Virus record (IMG/VR): IMGVR_UViG_3300021124_000013
Coordinates: 1-37,871 of that record
DNA from: a virus
Lineage: Duplodnaviria > Caudoviricetes
DNA: 37,871 nucleotides
Strand: one strand, 5' to 3'
This document shows, one piece after another, positions 6,665 to 24,008 of the stretch; position 1 is the stretch's first letter; each line of letters begins with the position of its first letter. The notes under the pieces were generated by a model, which ran no database searches, had not been told where the DNA came from, and worked only from the letters and a program-made list of their open reading frames with translations. The position numbers were made by a program, and so were the translations under genes.

Positions 6665-7113
6665 TACTTCATGCGCTCAGGTACGAACGTGTTCCATTCT
6701 GGGTTAGACTTATCAATGTAAATAGTCTTGCACTTAGATGGATCACCTTGCGCTGATGGACAGAAGTAACCTTTGTACACACCGCCCTGCTTGGATGCAC
6801 CCTGAATGCTGGTCATCTTTCCATGTGGACATGTGCGCCCCCCACCAATTGGGGCTGGGCTAAAAGGTGGTGTATCTTGCTGGATAACTTGACCACCTAA
6901 TGACTGGGCAATCAAGTTAGATGCCTGTGTTAATGGGGCAGCCTGTGTCCCACGTACTGCAGACTCAAGCTCAGTTACTGCTGAACTAATAGCAGCGAGT
7001 GCATTAGCCACAATACTGTCTAAGCCCTCGCCTGATTCAGCACGTACAGTAACAAGACTACCAACTGGTGTTTTGACTGTGATGCTGATAGGTGCTTCTG
7101 TGCTACTCATCAT
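6664..7113 (-). CDS. Replication-region protein with C-terminal Zn motif
   Basis: CPHG.M......KQGGVYKGYFC......C; sits between nuclease and helicase, as in other actinophages. Confidence 0.75.
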   Translation of the reverse strand: MMSSTEAPISITVKTPVGSLVTVRAESGEGLDSIVANALAAISSAVTELESAVRGTQAAPLTQASNLIAQSLGGQVIQQDTPPFSPAPIGGGRTCPHGKMTSIQGASKQGGVYKGYFCPSAQGDPSKCKTIYIDKSNPEWNTFVPERMK

Positions 7114-7729
7114 TCTCCTTTGGTTGTTGGAACCACGTACAATGCATGGTCAGTCCACACATCTTACAGTGATCGAAGTTAGGAAGGAATATGTTTTCCT
7201 TTCTAGCCTTGTCGAACATACGAACAAGCGTTTCGATCTTGCTGTCATCGTAGTCAGCAAGATCGAACGCATCAGACAACTCACCCTTACGAGCCATCCA
7301 ATAGTATCCTTTAGTTGCATTGATACCATAGATCTTACGTAGCCCATAAGAATAAAACGCCAACTGCAATGCAGATGTAGGCGTAGTCTTGCCTGTCTTT
7401 AGATCGACAATAATATATTCACCAGTTGTAGTATCTAGCATTACACGATCAAGAAACATCTTGACAGTAATGTCATCAACAACTGGATTCATTTCAAGTT
7501 CAATGCCTAGTTCACCGGTATGTGTAATAGCCATTGTTAAGTGGGGGTTAGCCTGGCGCCAATCAATCCATCGTTCATAAAACTTGTAGCCATTAGTGAA
7601 CCACCAGTCTTCATCTTCTGGATTGCGTCGAGGTGATGCTACTCGCCAGCCAGTCTTATCGCCTGCATATTCAGGGCGTTCTTTGGCAGTTTCATCCCAC
7701 CATTTTTTCCACTCTGTTAATAGACTCAT
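7103..7729 (-). CDS. Cas4/RecB-like PD-(D/E)XK exonuclease, C-terminal part
   Basis: IELE, LDRV, IVDLKTG, QLAFY and C-terminal CKMC.....C. Confidence 0.9.
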   Translation of the reverse strand: MSLLTEWKKWWDETAKERPEYAGDKTGWRVASPRRNPEDEDWWFTNGYKFYERWIDWRQANPHLTMAITHTGELGIELEMNPVVDDITVKMFLDRVMLDTTTGEYIIVDLKTGKTTPTSALQLAFYSYGLRKIYGINATKGYYWMARKGELSDAFDLADYDDSKIETLVRMFDKARKENIFLPNFDHCKMCGLTMHCTWFQQPKENDE

Positions 7730-8197: not shown

Positions 8198-8349
8198 CGC
8201 CAAGTCCACAAGAACCGAAGGTAGTACTTCCAGAATAAGAAACTAATCTGGAAGTACTGGTCATGTGGGCTGTAGTACAACCCAATGTCAAAGCCCCTGC
8301 CACTGTTGTGGGCATAGTGCTGTATCCATGAAGGCTTTAATGATTTCAT
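8194..8349 (-). CDS. 51-aa aromatic-rich hypothetical protein
   Basis: MKSLKPSWIQHYAH...FLWTWR*; ATGA overlap with the GATase stop. Confidence 0.65.
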   Translation of the reverse strand: MKSLKPSWIQHYAHNSGRGFDIGLYYSPHDQYFQISFLFWKYYLRFLWTWR

Positions 8350-9224
8350 TCTAGTCCCCAACTTTCTGATACTACATCTGACTTCTTCATATGAGTGCCA
8401 CCATAGTAGCAGTTGCAATCTACATACTGCGACTTGCAATCAAAGCAGTACATACACCAGTGGCATGTGTTCTCTAACTCGAGCATGCTTTCTTCATCTG
8501 ATTCAGCAGCACAGTTAGGGCATTCCACTAATCCATTTTTGTTCTTGGCGAGCGGCTTACCTTTCTTGTCCGTTGGAAAAAAGTCAAGCTCTTTATCAGC
8601 AACCCAACCTCCTGTTACCATGCTACGAGGCTTGGGTTTGTAACTAGACATTGGCGTAAGGTAACAAGAGTTGTTAGACCACCACACACCATGCTTATCT
8701 TCGGTGCCAAGATGTGCATTGAGTACATACATTTGATACTGAGCAACAGGATCTACTGTAAGTACACAGATCTTAGAACCAGAGGTGTAGTCTTCTAACA
8801 TATCCCAGATCAATGGGTTGTCTAAAGCAGCAACACCACCGATGGCAGGCAGCAGATCATCAGCAAAGACACGTGTGTCACTACGATCATCCTTTGCAGG
8901 GATCTTAATATCAAGCACACCATTGTGTCCAAGGTGTGTCTTCTCATCATTGCCTACTAAGAATGGATGACAGTTAACAACGTTACGGCTACCATGTGTA
9001 GCATAACGAGCATGCCACATTGACCAGCCTGTTGTGTACTTCTTCTTCATCTTAATGAACCGGGCAATAGATTCATCAGCATCCATAGTGCGCTCGCGCA
9101 AGATGCGATTCTCTTCTGGAATAACAATAGAGAATCCAAAGCCATGCGGATTGTTAAGGGCTGATGCTTCGAGCTTTTCTTTATCAGGCGTTACTCCTGG
9201 TGGTACTACACATAACATACACAT
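8346..9224 (-). CDS. Class II (Ntn) glutamine amidotransferase-like protein with Cys-rich C-terminus
   Basis: N-terminal MC, NPHGFG, HARYATHG, NCHPF, HNG, SDT, WWSN. Confidence 0.9.
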   Translation of the reverse strand: MCMLCVVPPGVTPDKEKLEASALNNPHGFGFSIVIPEENRILRERTMDADESIARFIKMKKKYTTGWSMWHARYATHGSRNVVNCHPFLVGNDEKTHLGHNGVLDIKIPAKDDRSDTRVFADDLLPAIGGVAALDNPLIWDMLEDYTSGSKICVLTVDPVAQYQMYVLNAHLGTEDKHGVWWSNNSCYLTPMSSYKPKPRSMVTGGWVADKELDFFPTDKKGKPLAKNKNGLVECPNCAAESDEESMLELENTCHWCMYCFDCKSQYVDCNCYYGGTHMKKSDVVSESWGLE

Positions 9225-10531
9225 TAGTTGTCCTCCTCAGAACTTGTGTTAGTTGGGATACGATCACGTTCAAACAACTCATTCAAGATGATGAACAAGT
9301 TAGGGTAAGTCTCAGAGTTCTCATTGACATAGCCAACAAACCTGACCCATGCAAATGAATTACTCTTACCAGTAACACGAAGGTTACGGGTGTACTCAAT
9401 AGCAGCAGCAACAAACTCGACTGCTGATAAGACACGTTCTTTACGTAGCGATCCACGAAAGACACGGATCTCTAACGTTGCACGGTTGTCAGTATTAACA
9501 GCAGAGTATCTGCCATCACGCTGCCTACCGGACTTTACTTTACGAACTACTCCGCCCTTGTCATTGAACGCAGCATAGGTAGATGAACGACCAGCAATAC
9601 GTTTGACTTGCTGCTCATTGTCATAGATCAACTTCATAAACTTAATCTGATGACTGTCACCACGTACATCTATGTCAGTACTAAATGCAGTACGAGACAC
9701 ATGCACATGCAGACCACACGATCTAGTGTTCCAAGATCTAAAGCCTAGGTCTTGTAACTTACTTAAGAATGTCCAGTTAAAGTTAGTCTGGAATTCTTTT
9801 AGTGTGTGTGGATGAGTGACAATCTCAAAGCCATGATTAAGTGAACCATCATACTTAAGATAAATACGCTCACCATTAGAACGATGTGCTAACTCAGAAC
9901 CAAAGTCAAAGTCTGAACCCATTGACTCTACTTCTAATTCGATACCAAACCCATAAGGTGTATCGCTACCATAAAAAATAGGCACTGGCTTGTAACTATA
10001 GTTATGAATAAAATTACTATCACTATCGTTCTCTTCATTACAATCATGCATGTCCCAATCATTCTCATGCATACGATCATTACAATCTCTGCATCTAATT
10101 GGTGTGTCATAACAAGTGCGACACATATATTGATCACGGAACTCTGACCATATAATGCCAGGATGATGAACGTCATAGAAAGCACGACCACTGCCATGCG
10201 CTGCACATACAATAGCTTCTAGTTCACCACTAATGCGCTCGCTAATAATCTTCTTATGACATGGACGACAGGTATCCCTATCGTTAAACCATCCTTCTTT
10301 ACTGGTATTAGTAGAACGCTTACGACAGACAGTACAAGTAAATGTACAACGATCGTGTGCCCATACTTCTTTAGTGTCACCTAAAGATGGATCACATTCT
10401 AGTGCATAGGTTGTAACGCGTGCGGTATGAAACGCCCTAACATTACGAGATTGGATCTTAAACAATTGATCTCTGCATTCATAGCATGCAGCGATCTCTA
10501 TTACTACCGGGGTACTGATTGTGTCCGGCAT
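9224..10531 (-). CDS. Glutamine-synthetase-fold amidoligase (COOH-NH2 ligase) with Cys-rich N-terminus
   Basis: GIELEVE, KYDGSL, FEIVTHP, CGLHVHVSR, RYSAVN, TLEIRVFRGSL. Confidence 0.9.
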   Translation of the reverse strand: MPDTISTPVVIEIAACYECRDQLFKIQSRNVRAFHTARVTTYALECDPSLGDTKEVWAHDRCTFTCTVCRKRSTNTSKEGWFNDRDTCRPCHKKIISERISGELEAIVCAAHGSGRAFYDVHHPGIIWSEFRDQYMCRTCYDTPIRCRDCNDRMHENDWDMHDCNEENDSDSNFIHNYSYKPVPIFYGSDTPYGFGIELEVESMGSDFDFGSELAHRSNGERIYLKYDGSLNHGFEIVTHPHTLKEFQTNFNWTFLSKLQDLGFRSWNTRSCGLHVHVSRTAFSTDIDVRGDSHQIKFMKLIYDNEQQVKRIAGRSSTYAAFNDKGGVVRKVKSGRQRDGRYSAVNTDNRATLEIRVFRGSLRKERVLSAVEFVAAAIEYTRNLRVTGKSNSFAWVRFVGYVNENSETYPNLFIILNELFERDRIPTNTSSEEDN

Positions 10532-11953: not shown

Positions 11954-12142
11954 TTATCTTTCCGTACTCAAACATTTAGGGCAAGTAAATGTGGTGTAGT
12001 TCACATTCTTTTTATACACCAACATAAACGCCTGACCACAATCACAATAGACCTTGCCAGTCTCGGCAAGATAGTAATGCTCAGGCTCCTGAGCATGTAG
12101 AAGAATGTTATCTTCTACTTCTCCACTAATAAAACCTTTCAT
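11954..12142 (-). CDS. Small Zn-ribbon protein
   Basis: YCDCG...FTCPKC; ATGA overlap. Confidence 0.75.
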   Translation of the reverse strand: MKGFISGEVEDNILLHAQEPEHYYLAETGKVYCDCGQAFMLVYKKNVNYTTFTCPKCLSTER

Positions 12143-12558
12143 GCGTTGACTCCTTCGCAGTTAGGACAGACTACATACTTGTTACATTGTAGGTAACACC
12201 ACTGACATATTACCTGAGTACTAGGTACATCCAGATCCTCATCCTCATCAAAGATCCTGTCGGACATATGGACAACAGGTTCAGTGAACTCTTCCCTGAT
12301 AGATCCATCCTTGCTACGTGTACTGGAACTTATCCAGTCATGACCACTAGGCATAGGCGTATCTACCAACCATTGCTTGCGATAAATAACGTTGCCTTCG
12401 TCAACTATCGTATGGGCAAGCACAGTCTGGTTGGTATCAAACTTATCCTGGCATTCAGGACAACGACCACCAACCATATCTTCATGCAACTCAATACAGG
12501 CAACACAGTTATTCATAATAGTCAATTCGTTTTGTACAACAACTGAGTCATTCATCAT
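12139..12558 (-). CDS. Double zinc-finger early protein
   Basis: CVAC..CPEC at the N-terminus and CQWC...CPNC at the C-terminus; SD AAGGAGAG. Confidence 0.8.
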   Translation of the reverse strand: MMNDSVVVQNELTIMNNCVACIELHEDMVGGRCPECQDKFDTNQTVLAHTIVDEGNVIYRKQWLVDTPMPSGHDWISSSTRSKDGSIREEFTEPVVHMSDRIFDEDEDLDVPSTQVICQWCYLQCNKYVVCPNCEGVNA

Positions 12559-12600
12559 TCTCTCCTTACTAAGTTAAGAGTCAGCCGATCTGGCAAACTC

Positions 12601-12637
12601 AACAAACGGAAAGGCTGACTGCCGAAGCAGCCAGCCA
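12601..12637 (-). terminator. Intrinsic terminator-like hairpin after the SSB-like gene
   Basis: - strand GGCUGGCUGC-UUCG-GCAGUCAGCC followed by UUUCCGUUUGUU. Confidence 0.7.
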
Positions 12638-12651
12638 ATCCGCTCCGCGGA

Positions 12652-12981
12652 TTAGGCGGTGATGCTTGTGAGCACCAGCGTCTCAGTCCAGATACCTTTA
12701 GCATCGGCTGTGTTCTTAAGCCAACCTGTAATGGTGACTACTGGACGGCTAGACTTCTTAGCCTTCTGCTCCTCTGGCGATAGAGCGGCAAACTCTGCGA
12801 GGGCTGGGATCTCCCGCACTTGCTCTGCAATATCGAAGGTACGGAACGCCTTTGAGGTGGTGTAAGCACCGTGCTCGCTGCGATCTACGATGAAGCCAGT
12901 AGCGTACAGATTGCCGTTCTTAGCGGTAGCGATCTTGAGGCTGCTTACTTCCGCGTTAGTGAAGACGATTGAGTGTGACAT
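12652..12981 (-). CDS. OB-fold single-stranded DNA-binding-like protein (first early gene)
   Basis: SD AGAAGGAGAG; beta pattern 'TAKNGNLYATGFIV', 'FRTF', 'VTITGWLK', 'W..TLVLTSI' resembles an SSB/PriB OB fold; no acidic tail. Confidence 0.7.
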   Translation of the reverse strand: MSHSIVFTNAEVSSLKIATAKNGNLYATGFIVDRSEHGAYTTSKAFRTFDIAEQVREIPALAEFAALSPEEQKAKKSSRPVVTITGWLKNTADAKGIWTETLVLTSITA

Positions 12982-12986
12982 GTTTC

Positions 12987-13219
12987 TCTCCTTCTGTTTT
13001 GCCTCCCCGTTTTTGGGGTGGTCTGTGACCGACGCTTTGGCAGGGCAGACACAGGCTGTCACCCGAGGGCTCGTCGCCTTTAGCGACGTAAGCGCCCGAG
13101 GGCTAGAGGTCGCGGCGATCTAGGCAGCTCCGCTGCCTGCCGCGCACGATTAGACCTTGACAGCCTGTTAGGCTCTGCCACGGTCTCTCAGACCACCCTT
13201 TGGGGTGGCAGGAAGGAGA
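12987..13219 (+). promoter_or_regulatory. Putative single-strand (Frpo/sso-like) hairpin promoter with Y-shaped head
   Basis: Long stem with TTGACA 13157-13162 at the top of the paired arm and TG-C-CACGGT 13176-13184 facing a 6-nt bulge (13032-13037); two sub-hairpins at the apex. Confidence 0.6.
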
Positions 13220-13742
13220 ATGGCACACTGTCTTCACTGGAAGTAGCCTCTGCTACCGCTGGCAATCTGCTACTGGATACGTCGTGCAGCGGGTGCTTCA
13301 CGCCTCAGTTCCGTGCCATTGCAGAGCGGGGAGATACCCCGTCGCTCGCCGCTGACAGAGGACAGAAGCAGTCCAGTATCAGCATGGTTGGCACAGCCGT
13401 AAAGGTTCAGGACTGGCTGGTGCCACAGCCACCGTAGGTGGCAGGCAGTCAGCCATCCGAACGTTTGCCAGTCGGCTCGTACGAAAATAATGAATCTGAC
13501 TTGGCCCCAGTCGGAACATAGTGGAGACTGTGGGACAGCAGAGACAGCCGTCCATACCAGCCAACCTGTCTGCCAGCGTCTGACCCGGGTGGTTATTAAC
13601 TGGGCTTCCGTTCATAGACGTATCTCTGCCTAAATATTTCTGGTGTCATAGTGACACCTGTACCAGAATGTCCCAGTTTGTCCTATTTTGGAAAACACAG
13701 TAGCAAAGGAAACACAAAATTGTTTCCATCAAAACGTTCGTT

Positions 13743-13771
13743 TTGACTGTTTGAACGGATTAATACAGTAT
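13743..13771 (+). promoter_or_regulatory. Candidate promoter of the terminase/late operon
   Basis: TTGACT-17 nt-CAGTAT (or TACAGT at 15 nt), overlapping the palindrome TCAAAACGttCGTTTTGA. Confidence 0.4.
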
Positions 13772-13867
13772 AGGAAGTAAAGTTATTCGCAGGCTCTTAT
13801 ATAGCCTGCTCATACTGTTACAGACAGTAACTTATAGACGGACGGTTGTAGACGGGAAAGGTCTGTC

Positions 13868-15757
13868 ATGACATTCAAAGCAGGAGAAGAACACTTTAAA
13901 GTCAAGGCGCTAGCCGAGGCTAAAGCCAAAGTTTTGTCCATGGTCGAGGCGGGAGCAACAACCCACCAAGCCATGGTAGCAATCGGTAAGAAGCCTGATA
14001 CAGTCAGACAGTGGCTACTGCGTGACTCGGACTTTGCTACAGCGTTAGCGGAGGCAAAGGATCGAGGTGAGACAAACTCCTTGTCGAGCATCGGTAAGGA
14101 CAAGTCTGAACTATCATTCTCAGAATTCTCTAAGATGTTTCTTGACCAGTCAGTATTCCCACACCATCAGGACTGGGTAGACTTACTGGAGTCGAGAGAG
14201 CCTTCATGGCTGCATCCTTCTATTATCTACGAGCCAGCCGAACGACACAGGCTCCTCATCAATGTTCCGCCGGAACACGCGAAGTCCACTGTGATCACGG
14301 TGAACTATTCGACCTACCGTATCGCCCTTGATCCTAACGTTCGAATCATCGTAGTTTCGAAGACCTTAGTCAAAGCACGCGAGTTCGTGTATTCAATCAA
14401 GCAGCGTCTTTCGCACCCTCGTTACCTCAAGCTTCAAAACGCTTACGGTCCAGAGGGGGGCTGGAAAGAGGACGCAGACACTTGGAAAACTGACACGGTT
14501 TATCTTGGGGGCGATGCGCGTAACTCTAGCGAAAAAGATCCAACCCTTCAAGCCCTAGGCATGGGTGGTCAGATCTACGGCGCACGTGCAGATCTGATCA
14601 TCCTTGACGACGTTATTACAACTGCCAATGCCCATGAATGGGACAAGCAGATTAACTGGCTACAAAAAGAAGTTATTACCCGTTTGGGTAAGAACGGTAA
14701 ACTTCTCATAGTTGGGACACGGATTGCGGCTAATGACTTCTATAAAGAACTTCGTAATCCAAAACACTGGTCTGGTGGCCGTAGCCCCTTTACTTATATG
14801 GGCATGCCTGCTGTATTGGAATTTGCTCAAGAACCCGCAGACTGGCAGACTCTATGGCCTGAGTCGGATGTCCCGTGGGATGGAGACGAAGACGTCCCAC
14901 CCAATGAAGATGGATTCTACCCAAAGTGGGATGGACCCACTCTCTTCAAGCGTCGTAGCGAGGTTACTCCTAGTACGTGGGCTCTTGTCTACCAACAAGA
15001 AGACATCCAAGAAGATTCAGTCTTCCCCCCAGCCCTGGTATCGGGATCAACAAATGGGGCTCGAAGAGTCGGACCTTTAAAACCTGGCGTAGTGGGACAT
15101 CCCAAATCAGTTGAGGGTTACACCATCATTGGTATGGACCCAGCAATTGCAGGTAAGACAGCATTGGTTGTACTAACGTACAACAAAGTAGACGGCAAGA
15201 TCTATGTCCTTGACTGCTTGAATATGGCGGAGGGTAACTATCAAAAGATCCGAGCGGCTATTGAGGCTTACACAGAAAAATACAAGCCACAAGAAGTCAG
15301 AGTCGAAATCAACGCATTCCAGAAAGCCTTTGAACTTGACGAAGATCTACGTAACTGGCTTGCCGGACGTGGAGTCAGACTTAACTCACACTTCACAGGC
15401 AAGAACAAGTGGGACACTTCATTCGGTGTGGCTTCTATGTCAGCGCTTTTCGGAACAATGAGAGATGGCAACCACCAAGATAACAACCTTATTGAACTTC
15501 CATCATCAGATGGTTCAGAAGGAATCAAAGCATTAGTACAGCAATTAATTACATGGAAGCCAGACACTAAAGGTCCAACAGACTGTGTTATGGCAATGTG
15601 GTTCGCGGTCATTAGAGCCCGCGAGATGATCCAAAAGAATACCCATGTGTCTCCGTACCTAACCAACAGGTGGGCTACTAAGTCACAAATGGAATCACGT
15701 TACTCAATCAATCTCGATGATGCTTTCTCAGAGCAATGGACCGAGACTTACGGATAG
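13868..15757 (+). CDS. terL: Terminase large subunit with N-terminal HTH-like extension
   Basis: PPEHAKST Walker A, GARADLIILDD Walker B, VGTR, YQQ, IGMDPA nuclease, E.NAFQ, DCVMA. Confidence 0.95.
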   Translation: MTFKAGEEHFKVKALAEAKAKVLSMVEAGATTHQAMVAIGKKPDTVRQWLLRDSDFATALAEAKDRGETNSLSSIGKDKSELSFSEFSKMFLDQSVFPHHQDWVDLLESREPSWLHPSIIYEPAERHRLLINVPPEHAKSTVITVNYSTYRIALDPNVRIIVVSKTLVKAREFVYSIKQRLSHPRYLKLQNAYGPEGGWKEDADTWKTDTVYLGGDARNSSEKDPTLQALGMGGQIYGARADLIILDDVITTANAHEWDKQINWLQKEVITRLGKNGKLLIVGTRIAANDFYKELRNPKHWSGGRSPFTYMGMPAVLEFAQEPADWQTLWPESDVPWDGDEDVPPNEDGFYPKWDGPTLFKRRSEVTPSTWALVYQQEDIQEDSVFPPALVSGSTNGARRVGPLKPGVVGHPKSVEGYTIIGMDPAIAGKTALVVLTYNKVDGKIYVLDCLNMAEGNYQKIRAAIEAYTEKYKPQEVRVEINAFQKAFELDEDLRNWLAGRGVRLNSHFTGKNKWDTSFGVASMSALFGTMRDGNHQDNNLIELPSSDGSEGIKALVQQLITWKPDTKGPTDCVMAMWFAVIRAREMIQKNTHVSPYLTNRWATKSQMESRYSINLDDAFSEQWTETYG

Positions 15758-18364: not shown

Positions 18365-18789
18365 TGGCAGGAGATCAAGGCGGATACCGCCAGCCATCTA
18401 ATCCAGCACCAGTATCAGGTCCAGGCGCTCTTTCAAAGCGCACAGACGGTGGTGCCGTTGACGGTATGCAACCTCAAGCACCTAAGTACATGCCTGGACT
18501 AGGCTATGGAAAAGGCGGAGAGAACATGGCTAATCAGCAGGCTGCTCCATTAGCCGGTGCTCCAGTAACTCCACCTGCTCCTACAGTTGTACCTTTATCT
18601 GCCCCTACGCAGCGTCCTAACGAGCCAATTACTGCTGGCATTGACAGAGGTCCAGGACCAGGATCAGAAGCCATACAGGTGCCTAACATGGCTATTTCTC
18701 CATCGCACACTCTTCGCACCATTGCCCAGAATGATCCAACTGGAGACTCTGAACTTCTGTATAGGTCATTACTCAGTAGAGGTTTGTAA
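18364..18789 (+). CDS. Pro/Gly-rich putative virion protein
   Basis: TAATG coupling; PAPVSGPGALSKRTDGG, PTQRPNEPITAG. Confidence 0.8.
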   Translation: MAGDQGGYRQPSNPAPVSGPGALSKRTDGGAVDGMQPQAPKYMPGLGYGKGGENMANQQAAPLAGAPVTPPAPTVVPLSAPTQRPNEPITAGIDRGPGPGSEAIQVPNMAISPSHTLRTIAQNDPTGDSELLYRSLLSRGL

Positions 18790-21700
18790 TGCCAGATATG
18801 ACTCCAATTCCCGGCGTTGCCGTTGGGCCTCGCGCATCTTTGCCTGCCACGCCAGTTACTGGTATTACTGCTCCAACTAATACACTTGCTGGTAATACTT
18901 CAGCACTTAACCTAAGCCCACATGTTATGGACATGTCTCCTTCTCTTTATGCAGCAGCGGCAACTGGTGGTTTAAATGCAAACCAGCAGAATATGGTTAA
19001 TCAGATTGCTGGAACTGTGCAGACTTACAAAGCATTAAATGCTTTGCCAATACAGCAGGCTAAACAAAACTATAAAGCCCTAGGTCAAGAAGCACAAGCA
19101 ATGCTTAAGAGCATGTACGGTGCTCCTGCTTGGACTAATACAGATAACTGGATTACTGGTGCAGTTAAAGGTATTGCTTCGACAACTATTAAAGCAGTAG
19201 CAAGTCCACTTATTGCGCTTTACCAAGCTGCTGGTATTGAAAGCAAAGTTATTAATGCACCATATTTGTTTGCACGTGAATTAACACAAGGTGAGTCGGC
19301 TCTTAATTTTAATACATACAAAAAAGCATGGAACGGTAACGCTGTCTTTGACAACGGTACGCTTGCTAATCTACAAAAAACTTATGGCAAAGCCAATGCA
19401 TTTATTGCTGAAGGTATCCTTAAGGGTGAGACTCCTGGCCAAATCATTGACTCATACGGCAAGGTTGATGGAGATCTTTATACTGGACTAGCAAACATGC
19501 TAGGCAACACTAAAGAATTTAATTCCATGATGGATGAGTTCCGTGGAGCGCAGGTTAGTCCTGGCCGCGATCTAGCACGTCTTGCTTTTAACGTACCAAT
19601 TACTGATAGTCACTTCTACACTACGGGTAAGTGGAAATATTCTTCAGGTACAGTTGATGCGTTTTACGAAATCTTGCATGATCCTCTTACTTACATTACA
19701 GGTGGCGGAGCAAAAGTAGCAGAAGCATCTACTAAAGGTGCTCAAATGGCAGAAAAGTTAATTGCCGATCCTGCACTTCGTGCATCTAATGCAGAAGAAA
19801 TCTTTAAACCAGGCACTCAGTTGGCTAATACGTGGGACAATACACTTGGACCATTGGTCCAGCGTGCAACAGAAGCAGATAAAGCCAAAGATCCAGTTGC
19901 TAAAGCAGCAGTCATGCGTGACATTGTGCAAAGCGCACCTGAAATTAACAACCCTGACTTCCTTTCTATCCTTGGTAAAGCAAAAGCCTTTGATGCTAAT
20001 GGCATCAAGGAGTTTGCAAAGACTATGCAGGGCGCTCAAGAACTACATATGGGTACCATCGATGGTCCAACTGCACTGCGCATGGGTATTCCTGTAGCAC
20101 GTCGTGAACGTTTCAGCATTAGCGGTGCTAACCGCGTACTTAGTGACTTGTTTAATGGCAAGATTACTGAAGAACAAGTAGACAATGCACTTAAGAATGG
20201 TCATAAAGGGCTAGAAGAAATTGGTCGTGCACTAGATCCAGTAACTGGATTGCCAACTACTGAGTATGACCGTGCAAGACTTGATTCTTTCCAGGGTCAA
20301 ATGACCCTTGGTCGCCGTATTAGCCGTATGGCACAGACGCATCCAGGGCATGAAGTTATTAATGTTATGGATGAGAATGTTAAAAGCACTCTTTCTGTGT
20401 TTAATAGGTACTTGCGTCTTGCTGGATACCCTAAATACGCTGCAGATATTACAACTGCTGCTTTTGAGTACTCTAATCCTACAGATCGTGTAACAGTTCT
20501 TCGTGGATTATACAGTCAGATCATGAACTTAATGGGCGTACCAGAAGAAAGCCGTGCTGCTGTACTTAGTGCTAAGTTTGCAGACAGTGCTACCTTTGCA
20601 AACCCTAAAGATCTTTATATTAACCCTGAACATCTATCTGAGTGGAAGCAAGTAGACCCACTTGTGCATGATCCGCTTAAAGACGGAACAGATATGTACA
20701 AGGTTACTACTAATGGTCCGCTTCATGCATACCAGGGTAAGCCACATATTGGTGGATTGGACTTTAACGGTCCAGAACTAGCACCATATGGTTTTAATTT
20801 TGCTAAAACAAAGCCTGCTTATCTTATTAACCACGTACTAGGCAACGCTACACGTTCTGCCTTTGCTCGTAAGATAACTAATCTATGGGCAACAGGATCT
20901 ATCTTCCCACGTATGGGTACTCGCGGTACAGTAGAGCAGGGTATCTTCCATTTGCTTACTGCACCGGTACAGAACATTACTGGATGGGCTAGAGGTCGCG
21001 CACTTAATCGTTTAGGTATTGCCCTTACAGGCAACAATGAACAGATGCCTATTATCACACGTGGACTTAAGAGTATGTTTGGCATTAACCCTGCTAAATG
21101 GATACCTGAGAAAAGCGTTTATGATCAGATGGATAAAAAAATTGTCCAAGGTCATCTCGATCGTGGCATAGTCAATGGTCAAGAAGTTTGGCAAGCTGCT
21201 CAGCATGCAGATCTTATCCATGCTCTTGCTGCAAAGATTGATCGTTATTCAGGTGGAGATCCTGTTAAAGCACAGATCTTAGAGAAGTTCTTAAAGTACC
21301 CTACAGGTATTCGTTCTGCTGAAGTTAACTCAGTTATTGCTAAGAGTGCCATGGCACAGGGCATTATGGGTGGGGAACTAGATCAGTCAGTACTCACTGG
21401 TAATCAAATCCAGCGTATGCTTAAATCAGTAGGATACAAAGCAACAGGTCGTTTAAAAAATGTAGATCCTGCGCAGATCGCCAATAATCTTGGCGAAGAC
21501 GGTCTAGCAGATTCACACTTCCGTGTATGGGCTCCTATGTTTAAGAGTTTTAATAAACTAGATGGCTTCCATTTCGGTGAGAACTTTATTAAAAACAATG
21601 CTTTAAAGACTGGTGCAGACTTTGCTGCTGCACGTGATGCAATCCTCAAGCGCTTTGGTATGAATCCTGAGACACTTGAGATTGTAAAACCAGCAGAGTT

Positions 21701-24008
21701 TAAGAAGTACAAGCAGTTCTCTATGCAGACTGCACGTGATGTGAGCGATAAAGGATTAACAGAAGCACAAAGCGTACTTAATCGGGTGCAGATTGCACTA
21801 CAGGATATGTATACCACCTTTCATGGTGATCCAATTAAGTACAATGATAAGTTAGTCAAAGCAGTTCAGGACATTGCTAGTGCTCCTGGTGGCTCTATTG
21901 CCAAGGGATTGGATGCTATTGATCACAATGCATTCCGTGAACTAACACGTGACTTCCGTCCAACTGGTGAGTTTAAGTCTGACCTAGAACCTTTGCATGA
22001 TTCCTTGTGGAATAAAAGCAAGGAAGAAGTAGGCGGAGAAATCATGAACGCTATCAAACGTTTTGGTGATGGCGGTCTACAAGGCAAAGCACTTGGCATG
22101 ATGGACGCTCAGATTAACTATATGTTTAATCAACCTGCTCTTAAGATAGCAGCAATGACATTAAACGAAAAGTACCTTCCTCTTGAGAAAGAGATGTACA
22201 ATAAGTTAATTGAAGAAGGCTATGCCAAAGAGACTGCAAAGGAAATTTCTGAACGCCACTTTGTAGAAGTGGCTGAGAAGAATGCAGCGCAGCAAGTACT
22301 TAAGTTTGTAGATAGCGCAGCAAAGCAATCTAACTTAGCCTTTGCTCTCAAGACCTCTGGTCGATTCTACCGTGCTCAAGAGCAGTTTCAACGCCGTATT
22401 ATGCGTCTTAAAGACTACCTACCACGTGCTTTGTATCGTACTCGCCTAGCACATCTAGGTATAGATAATGCTGGATTCATTCATAAAGATCAGAATGGAA
22501 ACCCATACATCTCAGTACCGGGTGATGCAGCAATGTTTAATGCTATCAACGGCACATTAAACTTCTTTTTAAACCGTCCTGATACTGCAGTTAGTACACC
22601 TTTGTTTGCTAACTTCAATATGAACTTAATTCAATCAAGCCCATCTCTTGGACCTGATGCAGGTGTACCTGCATTCTCTGGTCCATTAATGTCTGTTCCT
22701 ATTTTAGGGCTTAAGATGCTATTGAATAAACTTCCTTGGGGCTTTGGAAAAGACGCAGCGACTAGTATTGATAGCGTAATGCTTGGTTCTAAAAATGCCA
22801 ATTTAACTGCAAGCAAACTAGAACCTGTCTTTGTGCAGCGTATGATTGAGCTTCTGCCTAAAGATGAGCAGGATCATCAGTATGCATCTGCTGCAATGAT
22901 GGCTATATCTTTTAATGCACTACATGGGTATGGGGATCTTACCCCTTCCAGTACTGCAGGCATGAGTACAGACGAATACAAGTCTAAGGCTCAGACTTAT
23001 TTAGACAACCTGCATGTTACTGTTAATAACGTTATAGGACTTCGTGCTCTTTTGGGAATGATTTCACCTATTGCACCTACATTGGCAGAGGGTAAAGACG
23101 TACCTAATGTCTTTAAAAATGTAGGTATTAATAACTTTAGCGCAGCATTTAATGACATCTTACAGGGCGTTCTGCGTAATGATAAAGGTCTATCAGACCC
23201 ATATGAAACTGCACTAGGTATCTTTACTGAAAAGAATCCAGGTATGTCTGTTTTTGCTATAGGCAAAAATGACAAGCAGACTAAGTTGTTGCAGTCTTAT
23301 ACACAAAATACCCAGTCATGGATGCTTAATAACTCTAAGTGGGTTAACAATAGTGATCCAGGTATAGCATCAGCAGCCATGATTTTTGCTCCTGATATGG
23401 GCAAGTATGATCCTAATACTTATACTTGGATGCAGTCAACAGGGCTGATTACACAAAAGCCATTGGCTAAATACTTACAAGATGTTATGACTGCACAGGA
23501 TGTAGCAGCATATTGGAATGCTAAGAACCGCGAAACTAATGCTCTTAGAATACAAGGCACAGATAGAGCAGGGGTTATTGCTGATGCTCAGGCAGAACAG
23601 CAATCTATTCTTACTGCTAACCCAGTAGTAGCACTTACTGTTGGTGATGCTAAGACTCAACTAGCCAAGTATCAAAATGCGTTTGCTGGACTGGGTGCTT
23701 TGCTATCACGAAAAGACTTTCCTATTCCAGATGCAATGCGCAAGAAGATGCAAGTTGTGTACAACTATGCATCAAATGCTATACAAAGCATGACGGTTGA
23801 TACAACTGCTAATGGATTTATTAACGCATCTGTTGATAAAGAAAAGATGAAGCAGGATGCTATTGATCAAATATCAAGCATTGGTGGAGCCACAAAGCCT
23901 GGCGATGCACCAACAGATCCACAGGTAGCAGAAGCATTAAAGTCAATCATTGTTCCATTGCTCGATAACTTGTCAAAAACTACAGTGAAAGCGGGGTTAA
24001 CTAAGTAA
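18789..24008 (+). CDS. 1739-aa putative internal virion / DNA ejection protein
   Basis: Very large, mostly helical-looking ORF in the structural operon; no catalytic motif recognised; product inferred from size and position. Confidence 0.6.
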   Translation: MPDMTPIPGVAVGPRASLPATPVTGITAPTNTLAGNTSALNLSPHVMDMSPSLYAAAATGGLNANQQNMVNQIAGTVQTYKALNALPIQQAKQNYKALGQEAQAMLKSMYGAPAWTNTDNWITGAVKGIASTTIKAVASPLIALYQAAGIESKVINAPYLFARELTQGESALNFNTYKKAWNGNAVFDNGTLANLQKTYGKANAFIAEGILKGETPGQIIDSYGKVDGDLYTGLANMLGNTKEFNSMMDEFRGAQVSPGRDLARLAFNVPITDSHFYTTGKWKYSSGTVDAFYEILHDPLTYITGGGAKVAEASTKGAQMAEKLIADPALRASNAEEIFKPGTQLANTWDNTLGPLVQRATEADKAKDPVAKAAVMRDIVQSAPEINNPDFLSILGKAKAFDANGIKEFAKTMQGAQELHMGTIDGPTALRMGIPVARRERFSISGANRVLSDLFNGKITEEQVDNALKNGHKGLEEIGRALDPVTGLPTTEYDRARLDSFQGQMTLGRRISRMAQTHPGHEVINVMDENVKSTLSVFNRYLRLAGYPKYAADITTAAFEYSNPTDRVTVLRGLYSQIMNLMGVPEESRAAVLSAKFADSATFANPKDLYINPEHLSEWKQVDPLVHDPLKDGTDMYKVTTNGPLHAYQGKPHIGGLDFNGPELAPYGFNFAKTKPAYLINHVLGNATRSAFARKITNLWATGSIFPRMGTRGTVEQGIFHLLTAPVQNITGWARGRALNRLGIALTGNNEQMPIITRGLKSMFGINPAKWIPEKSVYDQMDKKIVQGHLDRGIVNGQEVWQAAQHADLIHALAAKIDRYSGGDPVKAQILEKFLKYPTGIRSAEVNSVIAKSAMAQGIMGGELDQSVLTGNQIQRMLKSVGYKATGRLKNVDPAQIANNLGEDGLADSHFRVWAPMFKSFNKLDGFHFGENFIKNNALKTGADFAAARDAILKRFGMNPETLEIVKPAEFKKYKQFSMQTARDVSDKGLTEAQSVLNRVQIALQDMYTTFHGDPIKYNDKLVKAVQDIASAPGGSIAKGLDAIDHNAFRELTRDFRPTGEFKSDLEPLHDSLWNKSKEEVGGEIMNAIKRFGDGGLQGKALGMMDAQINYMFNQPALKIAAMTLNEKYLPLEKEMYNKLIEEGYAKETAKEISERHFVEVAEKNAAQQVLKFVDSAAKQSNLAFALKTSGRFYRAQEQFQRRIMRLKDYLPRALYRTRLAHLGIDNAGFIHKDQNGNPYISVPGDAAMFNAINGTLNFFLNRPDTAVSTPLFANFNMNLIQSSPSLGPDAGVPAFSGPLMSVPILGLKMLLNKLPWGFGKDAATSIDSVMLGSKNANLTASKLEPVFVQRMIELLPKDEQDHQYASAAMMAISFNALHGYGDLTPSSTAGMSTDEYKSKAQTYLDNLHVTVNNVIGLRALLGMISPIAPTLAEGKDVPNVFKNVGINNFSAAFNDILQGVLRNDKGLSDPYETALGIFTEKNPGMSVFAIGKNDKQTKLLQSYTQNTQSWMLNNSKWVNNSDPGIASAAMIFAPDMGKYDPNTYTWMQSTGLITQKPLAKYLQDVMTAQDVAAYWNAKNRETNALRIQGTDRAGVIADAQAEQQSILTANPVVALTVGDAKTQLAKYQNAFAGLGALLSRKDFPIPDAMRKKMQVVYNYASNAIQSMTVDTTANGFINASVDKEKMKQDAIDQISSIGGATKPGDAPTDPQVAEALKSIIVPLLDNLSKTTVKAGLTK

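What the first reader, a model, noticed from the sequence alone, without database searches (positions are those of the whole stretch)
12583..13477. A non-coding gapped mirror copy of a whole gene: 900-nt fold-back around the SSB-like transcription unit
Seen: 13211-13477 (about 267 nt) is the reverse complement of 12583-12995 (about 410 nt), in more than 25 strictly colinear blocks of 4-11 nt. The gaps are almost all on the mirror side, so the gene arm loops out mostly 3-7 nt after each block. Example pairs (gene arm / mirror arm): TCTCCTTCT 12987 / GGAAGGAGA 13211; AGTGAAGAC 12958 / GTCTTCACT 13230; TACTTCC 12946 / GGAAGTA 13239; AGCGGTAGC 12922 / GCTACCGCT 13252; CAGATTGCC 12907 / GGCAATCTG 13261; CCAGTAGC 12896 / GCTACTGG 13269; GGTACGGAAC 12838 / GTTCCGTGCC 13308; GCTCTGCAAT 12822 / ATTGCAGAGC 13318; TACTGGAC 12739 / GTCCAGTA 13371; CGGCTGTG 12705 / CACAGCCG 13392; GCACCAGC 12672 / GCTGGTGC 13416; GGCTGACTGCC 12613 / GGCAGTCAGCC 13444; CTGGCAAAC 12590 / GTTTGCCAG 13463. 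Coverage runs from the RBS and ATG through the stop codon to past the terminator. Inference: regular one-sided gaps with few substitutions do not look like a decaying duplication. The mirror may act as a surrogate non-template strand, so the gene is quasi-duplex when the DNA is single-stranded. That would let RNA polymerase release its transcript and would shield the strand, while the bulges avoid a long perfect palindrome in dsDNA. I know of no described equivalent in tailed phages, but could not search.
Basis: partly seen in the sequence, partly recalled or inferred. Interest (0 to 1): 0.95.

Follow-up and report, generated by a model that had tools for sequence, protein, structure and literature searches.

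The report
Phage gene with co-evolving mirror strand
In a group of uncultured freshwater phages, a gene for a predicted single-stranded-DNA-binding protein always sits beside a non-coding, gapped mirror copy that evolves in step with it and carries the promoter-like motif the gene itself lacks, likely letting the gene be read when its template strand becomes single-stranded and folds back on itself.

Summary
Confirmed, and larger than reported. The + strand of 12584-13476 folds into one rod (DNA -293 kcal/mol, z -35). One arm is the template strand of a 109-aa gene with a predicted SSB-type OB fold; the other is a non-coding gapped sense copy. All 71 distinct gene-bearing loci with enough flank have a mirror; 0 of 39 terminase relatives lacking the gene do. 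Each mirror fits its own gene best (26 of 26 clusters). When a paired gene base changes, the mirror changes in 66 of 90 cases, against 83 of 1945 otherwise. G.T wobbles favour the template strand, 51 to 7. New here: the tip rebuilds a sigma-A-type promoter whose -10 element lies on the mirror arm only. A terminator follows the gene. The cassette lies about 1 kb from the inferred right genome end and is patchy on the terminase tree. Best reading (0.6): an Frpo-like single-strand-activated transcription unit whose mirror stands in for the missing strand. The source of ssDNA, and function itself, are untested. One-sided gapping is lineage-specific. Nine literature searches found nothing like it in tailed phages; this scan noted similar fold-backs in marine phages (unchecked).

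The parts
12584..12651 (+). Distal gene arm: template strand of the 3' untranslated region, paired with mirror 13424-13476
12613..12636 (-). Intrinsic terminator-like hairpin plus T tract closing the transcription unit; one is found 29-45 nt past the stop in 23 of 25 clusters
12652..12981 (-). 109-aa gene, predicted SSB/PriB-type OB fold without an acidic tail; its template (+) strand is one arm of the rod
   Evidence: no Pfam/PHROG hit
12987..12995 (-). Shine-Dalgarno site; its template strand pairs with mirror 13211-13219
   Evidence: sequence
13000..13061 (+). Template arm of the rebuilt promoter and leader; 13032-13037 loops out opposite the -10 element
13062..13156 (+). Branched G+C-rich tip of the fold-back
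13157..13162 (+). -35 element TTGACA on the mirror (non-template) arm; the coding strand has GTGACA at the facing place
13176..13184 (+). Extended -10 element TGC-CACGGT on the mirror arm; the coding strand has TGC-CAAAGC (no T at -7)
13157..13476 (+). Non-coding gapped mirror arm (sense-like copy of promoter region, leader, ORF and terminator region); 0.66 of the CDS length over the ORF
13582..13621 (+). Conserved end motif (GACCC-N-TTAA) and inferred right genome end near 13621, by analogy with three cultured Beephvirinae
   Evidence: inferred
13868..15757 (+). Terminase large subunit, first gene of the late arm (context)

Best explanation
The element is a co-evolving fold-back of the gene's template strand that likely works as a single-strand-activated transcription unit for a predicted SSB: when the + strand near the inferred right genome end loses its partner, it would fold on itself, the mirror arm would supply the -35 and extended -10 elements and stand in as the non-template strand, and host RNA polymerase would transcribe the gene to its terminator. 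SHOWN: the fold, its selection, its strict link to the gene, the template-strand bias, the promoter-like motif on the mirror arm only, the terminator. PREDICTED: OB/SSB fold. INFERRED: (1) the position about 130-1040 nt from the 3' end of the + strand; (2) ssDNA most likely arising by 5'-to-3' resection of the entering early end by a host or defence nuclease or the phage's own PD-(D/E)XK exonuclease (7103-7729), less likely by single-strand entry or strand displacement; (3) the mirror re-pairing behind the polymerase to displace the mRNA, while the hairpin-capped near-duplex hides the tail from nucleases and SOS sensing; (4) the SSB produced coating the ssDNA and unfolding the rod, or refilling of the gap, as the off-switch; (5) gaps and mismatches keeping perfect inverted repeats under 15 bp so that the dsDNA stays stable.
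For: Mirror in 71 of 71 distinct gene-bearing loci with flank, in 16 of 16 gene-positive and 0 of 39 gene-negative terminase relatives, and in none of 1461 windows away from the cassette (max 237 vs cassette median 573). Own mirror best in 26 of 26 clusters. 14 pairs, no locus reused: mirror changed at 66 of 90 sites where the gene changed (59 restoring Watson-Crick) vs 83 of 1945 where it did not, odds ratio 62. Template strand folds better as DNA in 26 of 26 clusters; isolated G.T vs A.C 51 to 7 in an energy-free alignment. Mirror-arm promoter score beats 200 shuffles at p<=0.005 in 17 of 26 and beats the gene arm in 23 of 26; the facing coding-strand hexamer has both A(-11) and T(-7) in 0 of 26. 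The untranscribed -35 to -10 spacer is itself mostly paired with the other arm and differs between lineages, which an RNA started at this promoter could not do. Same layout as Frpo2 upstream of ssb in F (PMC9849209). Transcription of bare ssDNA leaves RNA:DNA hybrids (PMC4496689; 10.64898/2026.01.09.698686). Right terminal-repeat boundary 38 nt after the same motif in 3 of 3 cultured relatives checked; motif in 54 of 55 relatives.
Against: No experiment and no expression data. Tailed dsDNA phages have no established kilobase ssDNA phase at entry (own knowledge); the source is a guess. In dsDNA the mirror-arm motif reads as a rightward promoter. In 9 of 26 clusters the promoter score is not significant at p<=0.005; six of these have only an extended -10, and my scoring required A(-11)/T(-7) by construction. 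0 of 26 on the coding strand is not rare against random hexamers (about 1.6 expected), only against a homogenised copy, and gapped register can shift by a base. The rod ends beyond the terminator stem in only 14 of 23 clusters. Mismatch classes other than G.T do not separate DNA from RNA (A.G 29 vs C.T 21), and folded as RNA the two strands of the window have similar z (-18, -19). G.T bias could also come from C deamination on a single + strand. The cassette is dispensable in the family (11 changes on the terminase tree). The three cultured relatives have no such mirror.
Confidence: 0.6

Rival explanations
1. Protective cap or primer rather than expression device: the fold-back mainly converts a resected or displaced 3' tail into a hairpin-capped near-duplex, and the promoter makes a primer RNA for second-strand synthesis (single-strand-origin role), with SSB expression secondary.
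For: Position near the inferred 3' end. Frpo transcripts can prime complementary-strand synthesis and such stems are replication roadblocks (10.64898/2026.01.09.698686). Rod end is only loosely tied to the terminator.
Against: The mirror is tied to this one gene (16 of 16 vs 0 of 39) and covers its RBS and ORF; a cap could use any sequence. A re-pairing mirror would displace a primer rather than hold it (inference). A terminator is conserved right after the gene (23 of 25).
Confidence: 0.15
2. Ordinary dsDNA rightward promoter making a ~300-nt sense-like mirror RNA that pairs with the gene's template DNA strand or with an antisense RNA (R-loop regulation or priming).
For: TTGACA-16-TGC-CACGGT is a complete motif in dsDNA pointing into the mirror; G.U bias would have the same polarity.
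Against: The promoter spacer upstream of the start site is paired with the other arm across lineages, which needs a DNA fold-back or a longer RNA. Most -10 elements have non-consensus C at -12 and many a 16-nt spacer. A gapped copy is a poor invader of dsDNA (inference).
Confidence: 0.08
3. A long + strand RNA (antisense arm plus mirror) folds into a ~900-nt rod as a structured non-coding or replicon-like RNA.
For: RNA fold -505 kcal/mol, z -18; G.U bias fits the + strand; HDV and obelisk rods carry an ORF on one arm (recalled).
Against: No Rfam match; no sigma-70-like promoter found in 12300-14000 by the simple scan (the scan is strict and also misses the mirror-arm motif); conserved promoter elements inside the rod would be pointless in RNA.
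Confidence: 0.07
4. Quasi-palindrome kept in step by polymerase template switching or fold-back repair, with no selected function.
For: Template switching homogenises inverted-repeat arms (PMC8604942, abstract start) and would give covariation.
Against: It should drive arms towards perfect repeats, yet these stay at 9-14 bp; it would erase the -10 difference between arms, kept in all clusters; no strand-change joints were listed in 8 runs of contigs (contigs drop rare variants). It may still be the mutational route that helps the mirror keep up.
Confidence: 0.05
5. Cis-antisense 5' leader on the mRNA (- strand) that sequesters the RBS and ORF.
For: The - strand also folds (z -18.5 DNA, -19 RNA) and would mask the RBS.
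Against: Wobbles favour the other strand 51 to 7; - strand folds worse in 26 of 26 clusters; no conserved leftward promoter upstream of the mirror.
Confidence: 0.05

Closest known systems
Frpo / ssi / ssp single-stranded DNA promoters of conjugative plasmid leading regions (F Frpo1, Frpo2)
   Same: Template-strand stem-loop that rebuilds -35 and -10 boxes; Frpo2 drives ssb(F) on entry and is shut off by conversion to dsDNA (PMC9849209, PMC11541004; passages read).
   Different: Frpo folds only the promoter; genes behind it are read from bare ssDNA. Here the pairing runs on through RBS, ORF and towards the terminator as a co-evolving gapped copy. The host element is a tailed dsDNA phage without a known ssDNA transfer step. 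No DNA similarity to plasmids.
Phage N4 virion RNA polymerase hairpin promoters
   Same: Template-strand hairpin promoter in a tailed phage; transcription of single-stranded templates yields RNA:DNA hybrids that EcoSSB must displace (PMC4496689, passages).
   Different: N4 hairpins are short, extruded by supercoiling and read by a phage polymerase; displacement is by protein. Here the motif is sigma-A-type, the fold is 900 nt and displacement would be by a DNA mirror. No N4-type polymerase was identified in the window.
Single-strand origins (sso) of rolling-circle plasmids and ICEs
   Same: Strand-specific imperfect long hairpins recognised by RNA polymerase or primase (search listing PMC4595007; details recalled).
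   Different: Non-coding on both arms; make primers; not tied to one gene.
Bacterial SSB / PriB OB-fold proteins (for the protein)
   Same: Predicted fold matches SSBs at Z 10-11, rmsd 2.2-2.5 over about 90 residues.
   Different: 13-18% identity; no acidic C-terminal tail; no Pfam hit; ssDNA binding not shown.
Rod-like RNA replicons (HDV, obelisks) - recalled
   Same: An ORF on one arm paired with a largely non-coding arm over about 1 kb.
   Different: Those are circular RNAs; this is a DNA cassette in a phage genome with a bacterial promoter motif and terminator.

Membership tests
Frpo-type ssDNA promoter | Stable stem-loop on the strand that is template for the downstream gene | tested here: met
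   (prediction and covariation)
Frpo-type ssDNA promoter | -35 and -10 boxes rebuilt in the stem | tested here: met
   significant in 17 of 26 clusters, extended -10 only in six more; -12 often C
Frpo-type ssDNA promoter | Silent for its gene in dsDNA | tested here: inconclusive
   coding strand has A(-11) plus T(-7) in 0 of 26; sequence only
Frpo-type ssDNA promoter | RNA polymerase initiates on the folded ssDNA | not testable with these tools
   needs in vitro transcription
Frpo-type ssDNA promoter | Lies in the leading region of a conjugative element; sequence related to known Frpo | tested here: not met
   window is a complete tailed-phage genome; no plasmid match
Single-strand origin (sso) | Primes second-strand synthesis | not testable with these tools
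   none
Single-strand origin (sso) | Present in all members of the replicon family | tested here: not met
   absent from 39 of 55 terminase relatives; 11 changes on the tree
SSB/PriB OB-fold proteins | Five-stranded OB barrel superposing on SSBs | tested here: met
   model pLDDT 92.6; Foldseek and VIA top hits are SSBs
SSB/PriB OB-fold proteins | Acidic C-terminal tail of canonical bacterial SSB (feature recalled) | tested here: not met
   alignment ends at the last strand in most members
SSB/PriB OB-fold proteins | Binds ssDNA; forms dimer or tetramer | not tested
   conserved Y26, F46, W87, W98, R79 are suggestive only
Rfam structured RNA families | Covariance-model match | tested here: not met
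   0 matches at E<=1

The most novel reading that the evidence does not exclude
Many tailed phages pass the first kilobase of their entering end through a programmed single-stranded state, and have evolved self-duplexing genes: a template strand plus a co-evolving compressed mirror that together form a complete promoter, gene and terminator readable by host RNA polymerase with free mRNA release. Here it would be an ssDNA sensor that makes SSB exactly when the end is attacked. With the similar fold-backs this scan noted in marine T7-like phages (unchecked), this would be an unrecognised, repeatedly evolved step of phage infection.
Probability: 0.35. Interest if true: 0.95.

Novelty: categorically new. 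Interest (0 to 1): 0.86.

Why it matters
Single-strand promoters are known from plasmid conjugation, where ssDNA entry is certain. Finding their hallmarks in a tailed dsDNA phage implies an unseen ssDNA state at the genome end, and a co-evolving non-coding mirror of a whole ORF matches no element found in my searches. It makes two questions directly testable with synthetic DNA: can a gapped surrogate strand let a bacterial RNA polymerase transcribe and release mRNA from one DNA strand, and how few and how short can the helices be (here mostly 6-9 bp with 4-6 nt template loops)? It suggests a counter-defence route for phage DNA ends under nuclease attack, and a design for gene expression from ssDNA. 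If the ORF-covering arm proves merely protective, the rating falls to a new variant of Frpo.

Tried and rejected
Assembly artefact: rejected. Decaying duplication: rejected. Pfam, PHROG, PDB-by-sequence and annotated-phage searches for the protein were blank; the Atlas gave unnamed clusters and a DUF3127 lead at 0.90. Rfam blank. No RNA holder listed among sequencing runs, which says nothing on expression; only contigs were available, so ends and strands could not be read. Contig ends of relatives as evidence for termini: suggestive only (clusters 68-74 and 185-222 nt left of the motif; two right ends at +31 and +33, others further), so terminal-repeat length is undetermined. A strict motif scan for short fold-back promoters in gene-negative relatives found 6 of 39 on the + strand, but it also missed the window's own, so it is insensitive. 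Using the mismatch spectrum to tell DNA from RNA: the MFE-based counts looked DNA-like but the energy-free recount did not hold up. Codon-phase of loops: none (paired 0.68, 0.66, 0.69). The oligomer state of the protein was not predicted. P0007 and P0016 are repetitive proteins that I judged spurious and left out.

Full report
Context. The window is a complete, circularly permuted phage genome (99-nt end overlap) with replication genes on the - strand (primase, DnaB-like helicase, PD-(D/E)XK exonuclease, RusA, sigma-like factor) and virion genes on the + strand from the terminase at 13868. It is held in freshwater metagenomes. The nearest cultured terminases are those of Streptomyces Beephvirinae at 42-45%, so an actinobacterial host is inferred, not shown. 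The finding lies at the switch between the two arms.

Observation. 12560-13500 folds into one rod: DNA -292.7 kcal/mol on + (z -35) and -270 on - (z -18.5). Of the 13 quoted pairs, 11 are perfect and two have one T.G wobble. The rod runs from 12584/13476 inward to 13061/13158. A gapped inverted-repeat score peaks only here in the window. Single contigs of five further runs span it, and a sixth covers it in two pieces.

The gene. 12652-12981 (-) encodes 109 aa with no Pfam or PHROG hit. A profile finds 91 clusters at 90% identity, down to 25%. The model from a 26-row alignment has pLDDT 92.6, and its best matches are bacterial SSBs and PriB (Z 10-11, rmsd 2.2-2.5 over about 90 residues). It has no acidic tail. 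A second small family, whose OB fold I assumed from its sequence pattern and did not model, aligns weakly with it (hhalign probability 50%). That family lies downstream in 53 of 62 cassette loci with 2 kb of flank but is absent from this genome.

Gene and mirror go together. Of 80 terminase loci, 25 had under 1000 nt upstream and were dropped. Of the other 55, 16 carry the gene and all 16 have a mirror (scores 540-878, shuffles at most 315); 39 lack the gene and none has one (108-277); 8 of those 39 have under 1450 nt upstream. Of 112 gene-bearing loci, 71 distinct ones (window and two near-copies included) had a full gene and enough flank; all 71 have a mirror (184-391, shuffle means at most 76). 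None of 1461 windows away from the cassette exceeds 237 (cassette median 573). On a terminase tree of 50 rows the cassette needs 11 changes, at least 8 forced by strong branches: it is an exchangeable accessory module.

Co-evolution. In 26 clusters at 90% gene identity each gene scores best with its own mirror (26 of 26); foreign mirrors fall to about 0.3 of own below 75% identity. In 14 pairs with no locus reused, at confidently aligned Watson-Crick sites the mirror changed at 66 of 90 sites where the gene changed (59 restoring the pair) and at 83 of 1945 where it did not (odds ratio 62). Gene substitutions are also rarer in paired than in looped positions (194 of 3099 vs 147 of 1560). Geometry varies: 44-86% of the CDS is paired and mirror/CDS length is 0.64-1.08. 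In nine compressed clusters helices are mostly 6-9 bp, template loops peak at 1 and 4-6 nt, and 206 of 299 junctions have no mirror-side gap. The longest perfect inverted repeat is 9-14 bp in all 26. So the constant is whole-gene pairing, not one-sided gaps.

Which strand. The template strand folds better as DNA in 26 of 26 clusters (mean 22 kcal/mol). In an alignment without energies, isolated mismatches are G.T on the template strand 51 times against 7 A.C. Other mismatch classes do not separate DNA from RNA, and as RNA the two strands of the window have similar z-scores. Deamination of a single + strand would give the same bias.

The tip is a promoter-like element that is complete only in the fold. 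The mirror arm, which would be the non-template strand, carries TTGAC(A/G) or a variant, 16-18 nt, then TGn-(C/T/A)AnnnT, mostly 44-64 nt before the ATG along the fold; in the window TTGACA 13157-13162, TGC-CACGGT 13176-13184. The score beats 200 shuffles at p<=0.005 in 17 of 26 clusters; six more have TAGGCT or TATAAT (five with TG) close to a short tip with no -35; three are weak. At the facing place the gene's own coding strand has A(-11) plus T(-7) in 0 of 26 (one cluster misfolded), and in the window six template bases loop out there. The scoring required A and T by design, and 0 of 26 is telling only because the arms match elsewhere. The untranscribed spacer is itself paired, which points to a DNA fold-back. 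The TTGACA/TATAAT consensus is from PMC11541004; the TANNNT and TG-extension rules are recalled. An intrinsic terminator lies 29-45 nt past the stop in 23 of 25 clusters; the rod ends beyond its stem in 14 of 23 and short of it in 9.

Position. A motif GACCC-N-TTAA lies about 300 nt upstream of the terminase in 54 of 55 relatives and at 13582 here. In FlowerPower, Manuel and WRightOn, whose linear records begin and end with direct repeats of 253, 276 and 264 bp, the repeat's right boundary is 38 nt after this motif. By analogy the right end is near 13621, so the cassette fills the last kilobase and the folding strand ends 3' there. This is inference from phages at 42-45% terminase identity, which themselves have no mirror.

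Mechanism. I commit (0.6) to a single-strand-activated transcription unit. Loss of the 5'-ended coding strand at the early end, most likely by resection, would free the + strand to fold; the mirror supplies the promoter's non-template strand and re-pairs behind the polymerase; SSB is made and would end the state. The reason to pair the whole ORF is inferred from two reports that transcription of bare ssDNA leaves RNA:DNA hybrids (PMC4496689; 10.64898/2026.01.09.698686); protection from nucleases and SOS sensing may matter as much. Template-side loops cost nothing in coding because only the template must be complete. Rivals: protective cap or priming element (0.15), mirror RNA from a dsDNA promoter (0.08), long rod RNA (0.07), neutral template switching (0.05), cis-antisense leader (0.05).

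Comparison. It works like Frpo at the tip (PMC9849209; PMC11541004) but fails membership on location and sequence, and Frpo does not pair with its genes. Papers seen: passages of PMC11541004, PMC9849209 and PMC4496689; parts 1-2 of 4 of the 2026 preprint; others as search listings only; Masai and Arai 1997 only as cited there. No supplements were read. Nine searches of an open-access library showed no report of such an element in tailed phages; subscription papers are largely missing. This scan's own notes describe kilobase fold-backs around first early genes in marine T7-like phages; I did not test them, and no sequence look-alike was found.

Verdict. Real, selected, strand-biased and tied to one gene, with an undescribed architecture; function inferred. 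Interest 0.86.

Noticed in passing
L027 (815-649 nt upstream of terminase), L085 (463-439), L069, L073, L083, L084: Gene-negative relatives carry shorter hairpins with TTGAC-like motifs on the 3' arm of the + strand at the start of the early region; possible Frpo-like promoters without an ORF mirror.
   Followed up: partly
window 13733-13830: Strongly conserved block upstream of the terminase in all relatives viewed (GTTCG...TTTGAAC followed by an AT-rich tract and a small hairpin); candidate late promoter or packaging site.
   Followed up: no
window 13582-13630: End motif shared with cultured Beephvirinae terminal repeats; a marker for locating genome ends in this family.
   Followed up: yes
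window 8346-10531 (-): Adjacent glutamine-amidotransferase-like and amidoligase-like genes; possible peptide- or wall-modifying pair.
   Followed up: no
window 18789-24008 (+): 1739-aa protein after the portal region with no PHROG hit (not run against Pfam); candidate ejected internal virion protein that could bear on how the DNA end enters.
   Followed up: no
window 12139-12558 (-): Cys-rich 139-aa ORF with weak zinc-ribbon hits; similar-looking ORFs sit among the first early genes in most relatives viewed, with or without the cassette.
   Followed up: no
window 13223: Variant G>T in the mirror (L002, X5, X7, X8, X9) closes a mismatch opposite the second codon.
   Followed up: yes
L020, L074, L119 and others, downstream of the cassette: A second small early gene family, weakly alignable to the cassette protein, present in 53 of 62 cassette loci and many gene-negative ones but absent from this genome; it has no mirror.
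   Followed up: partly
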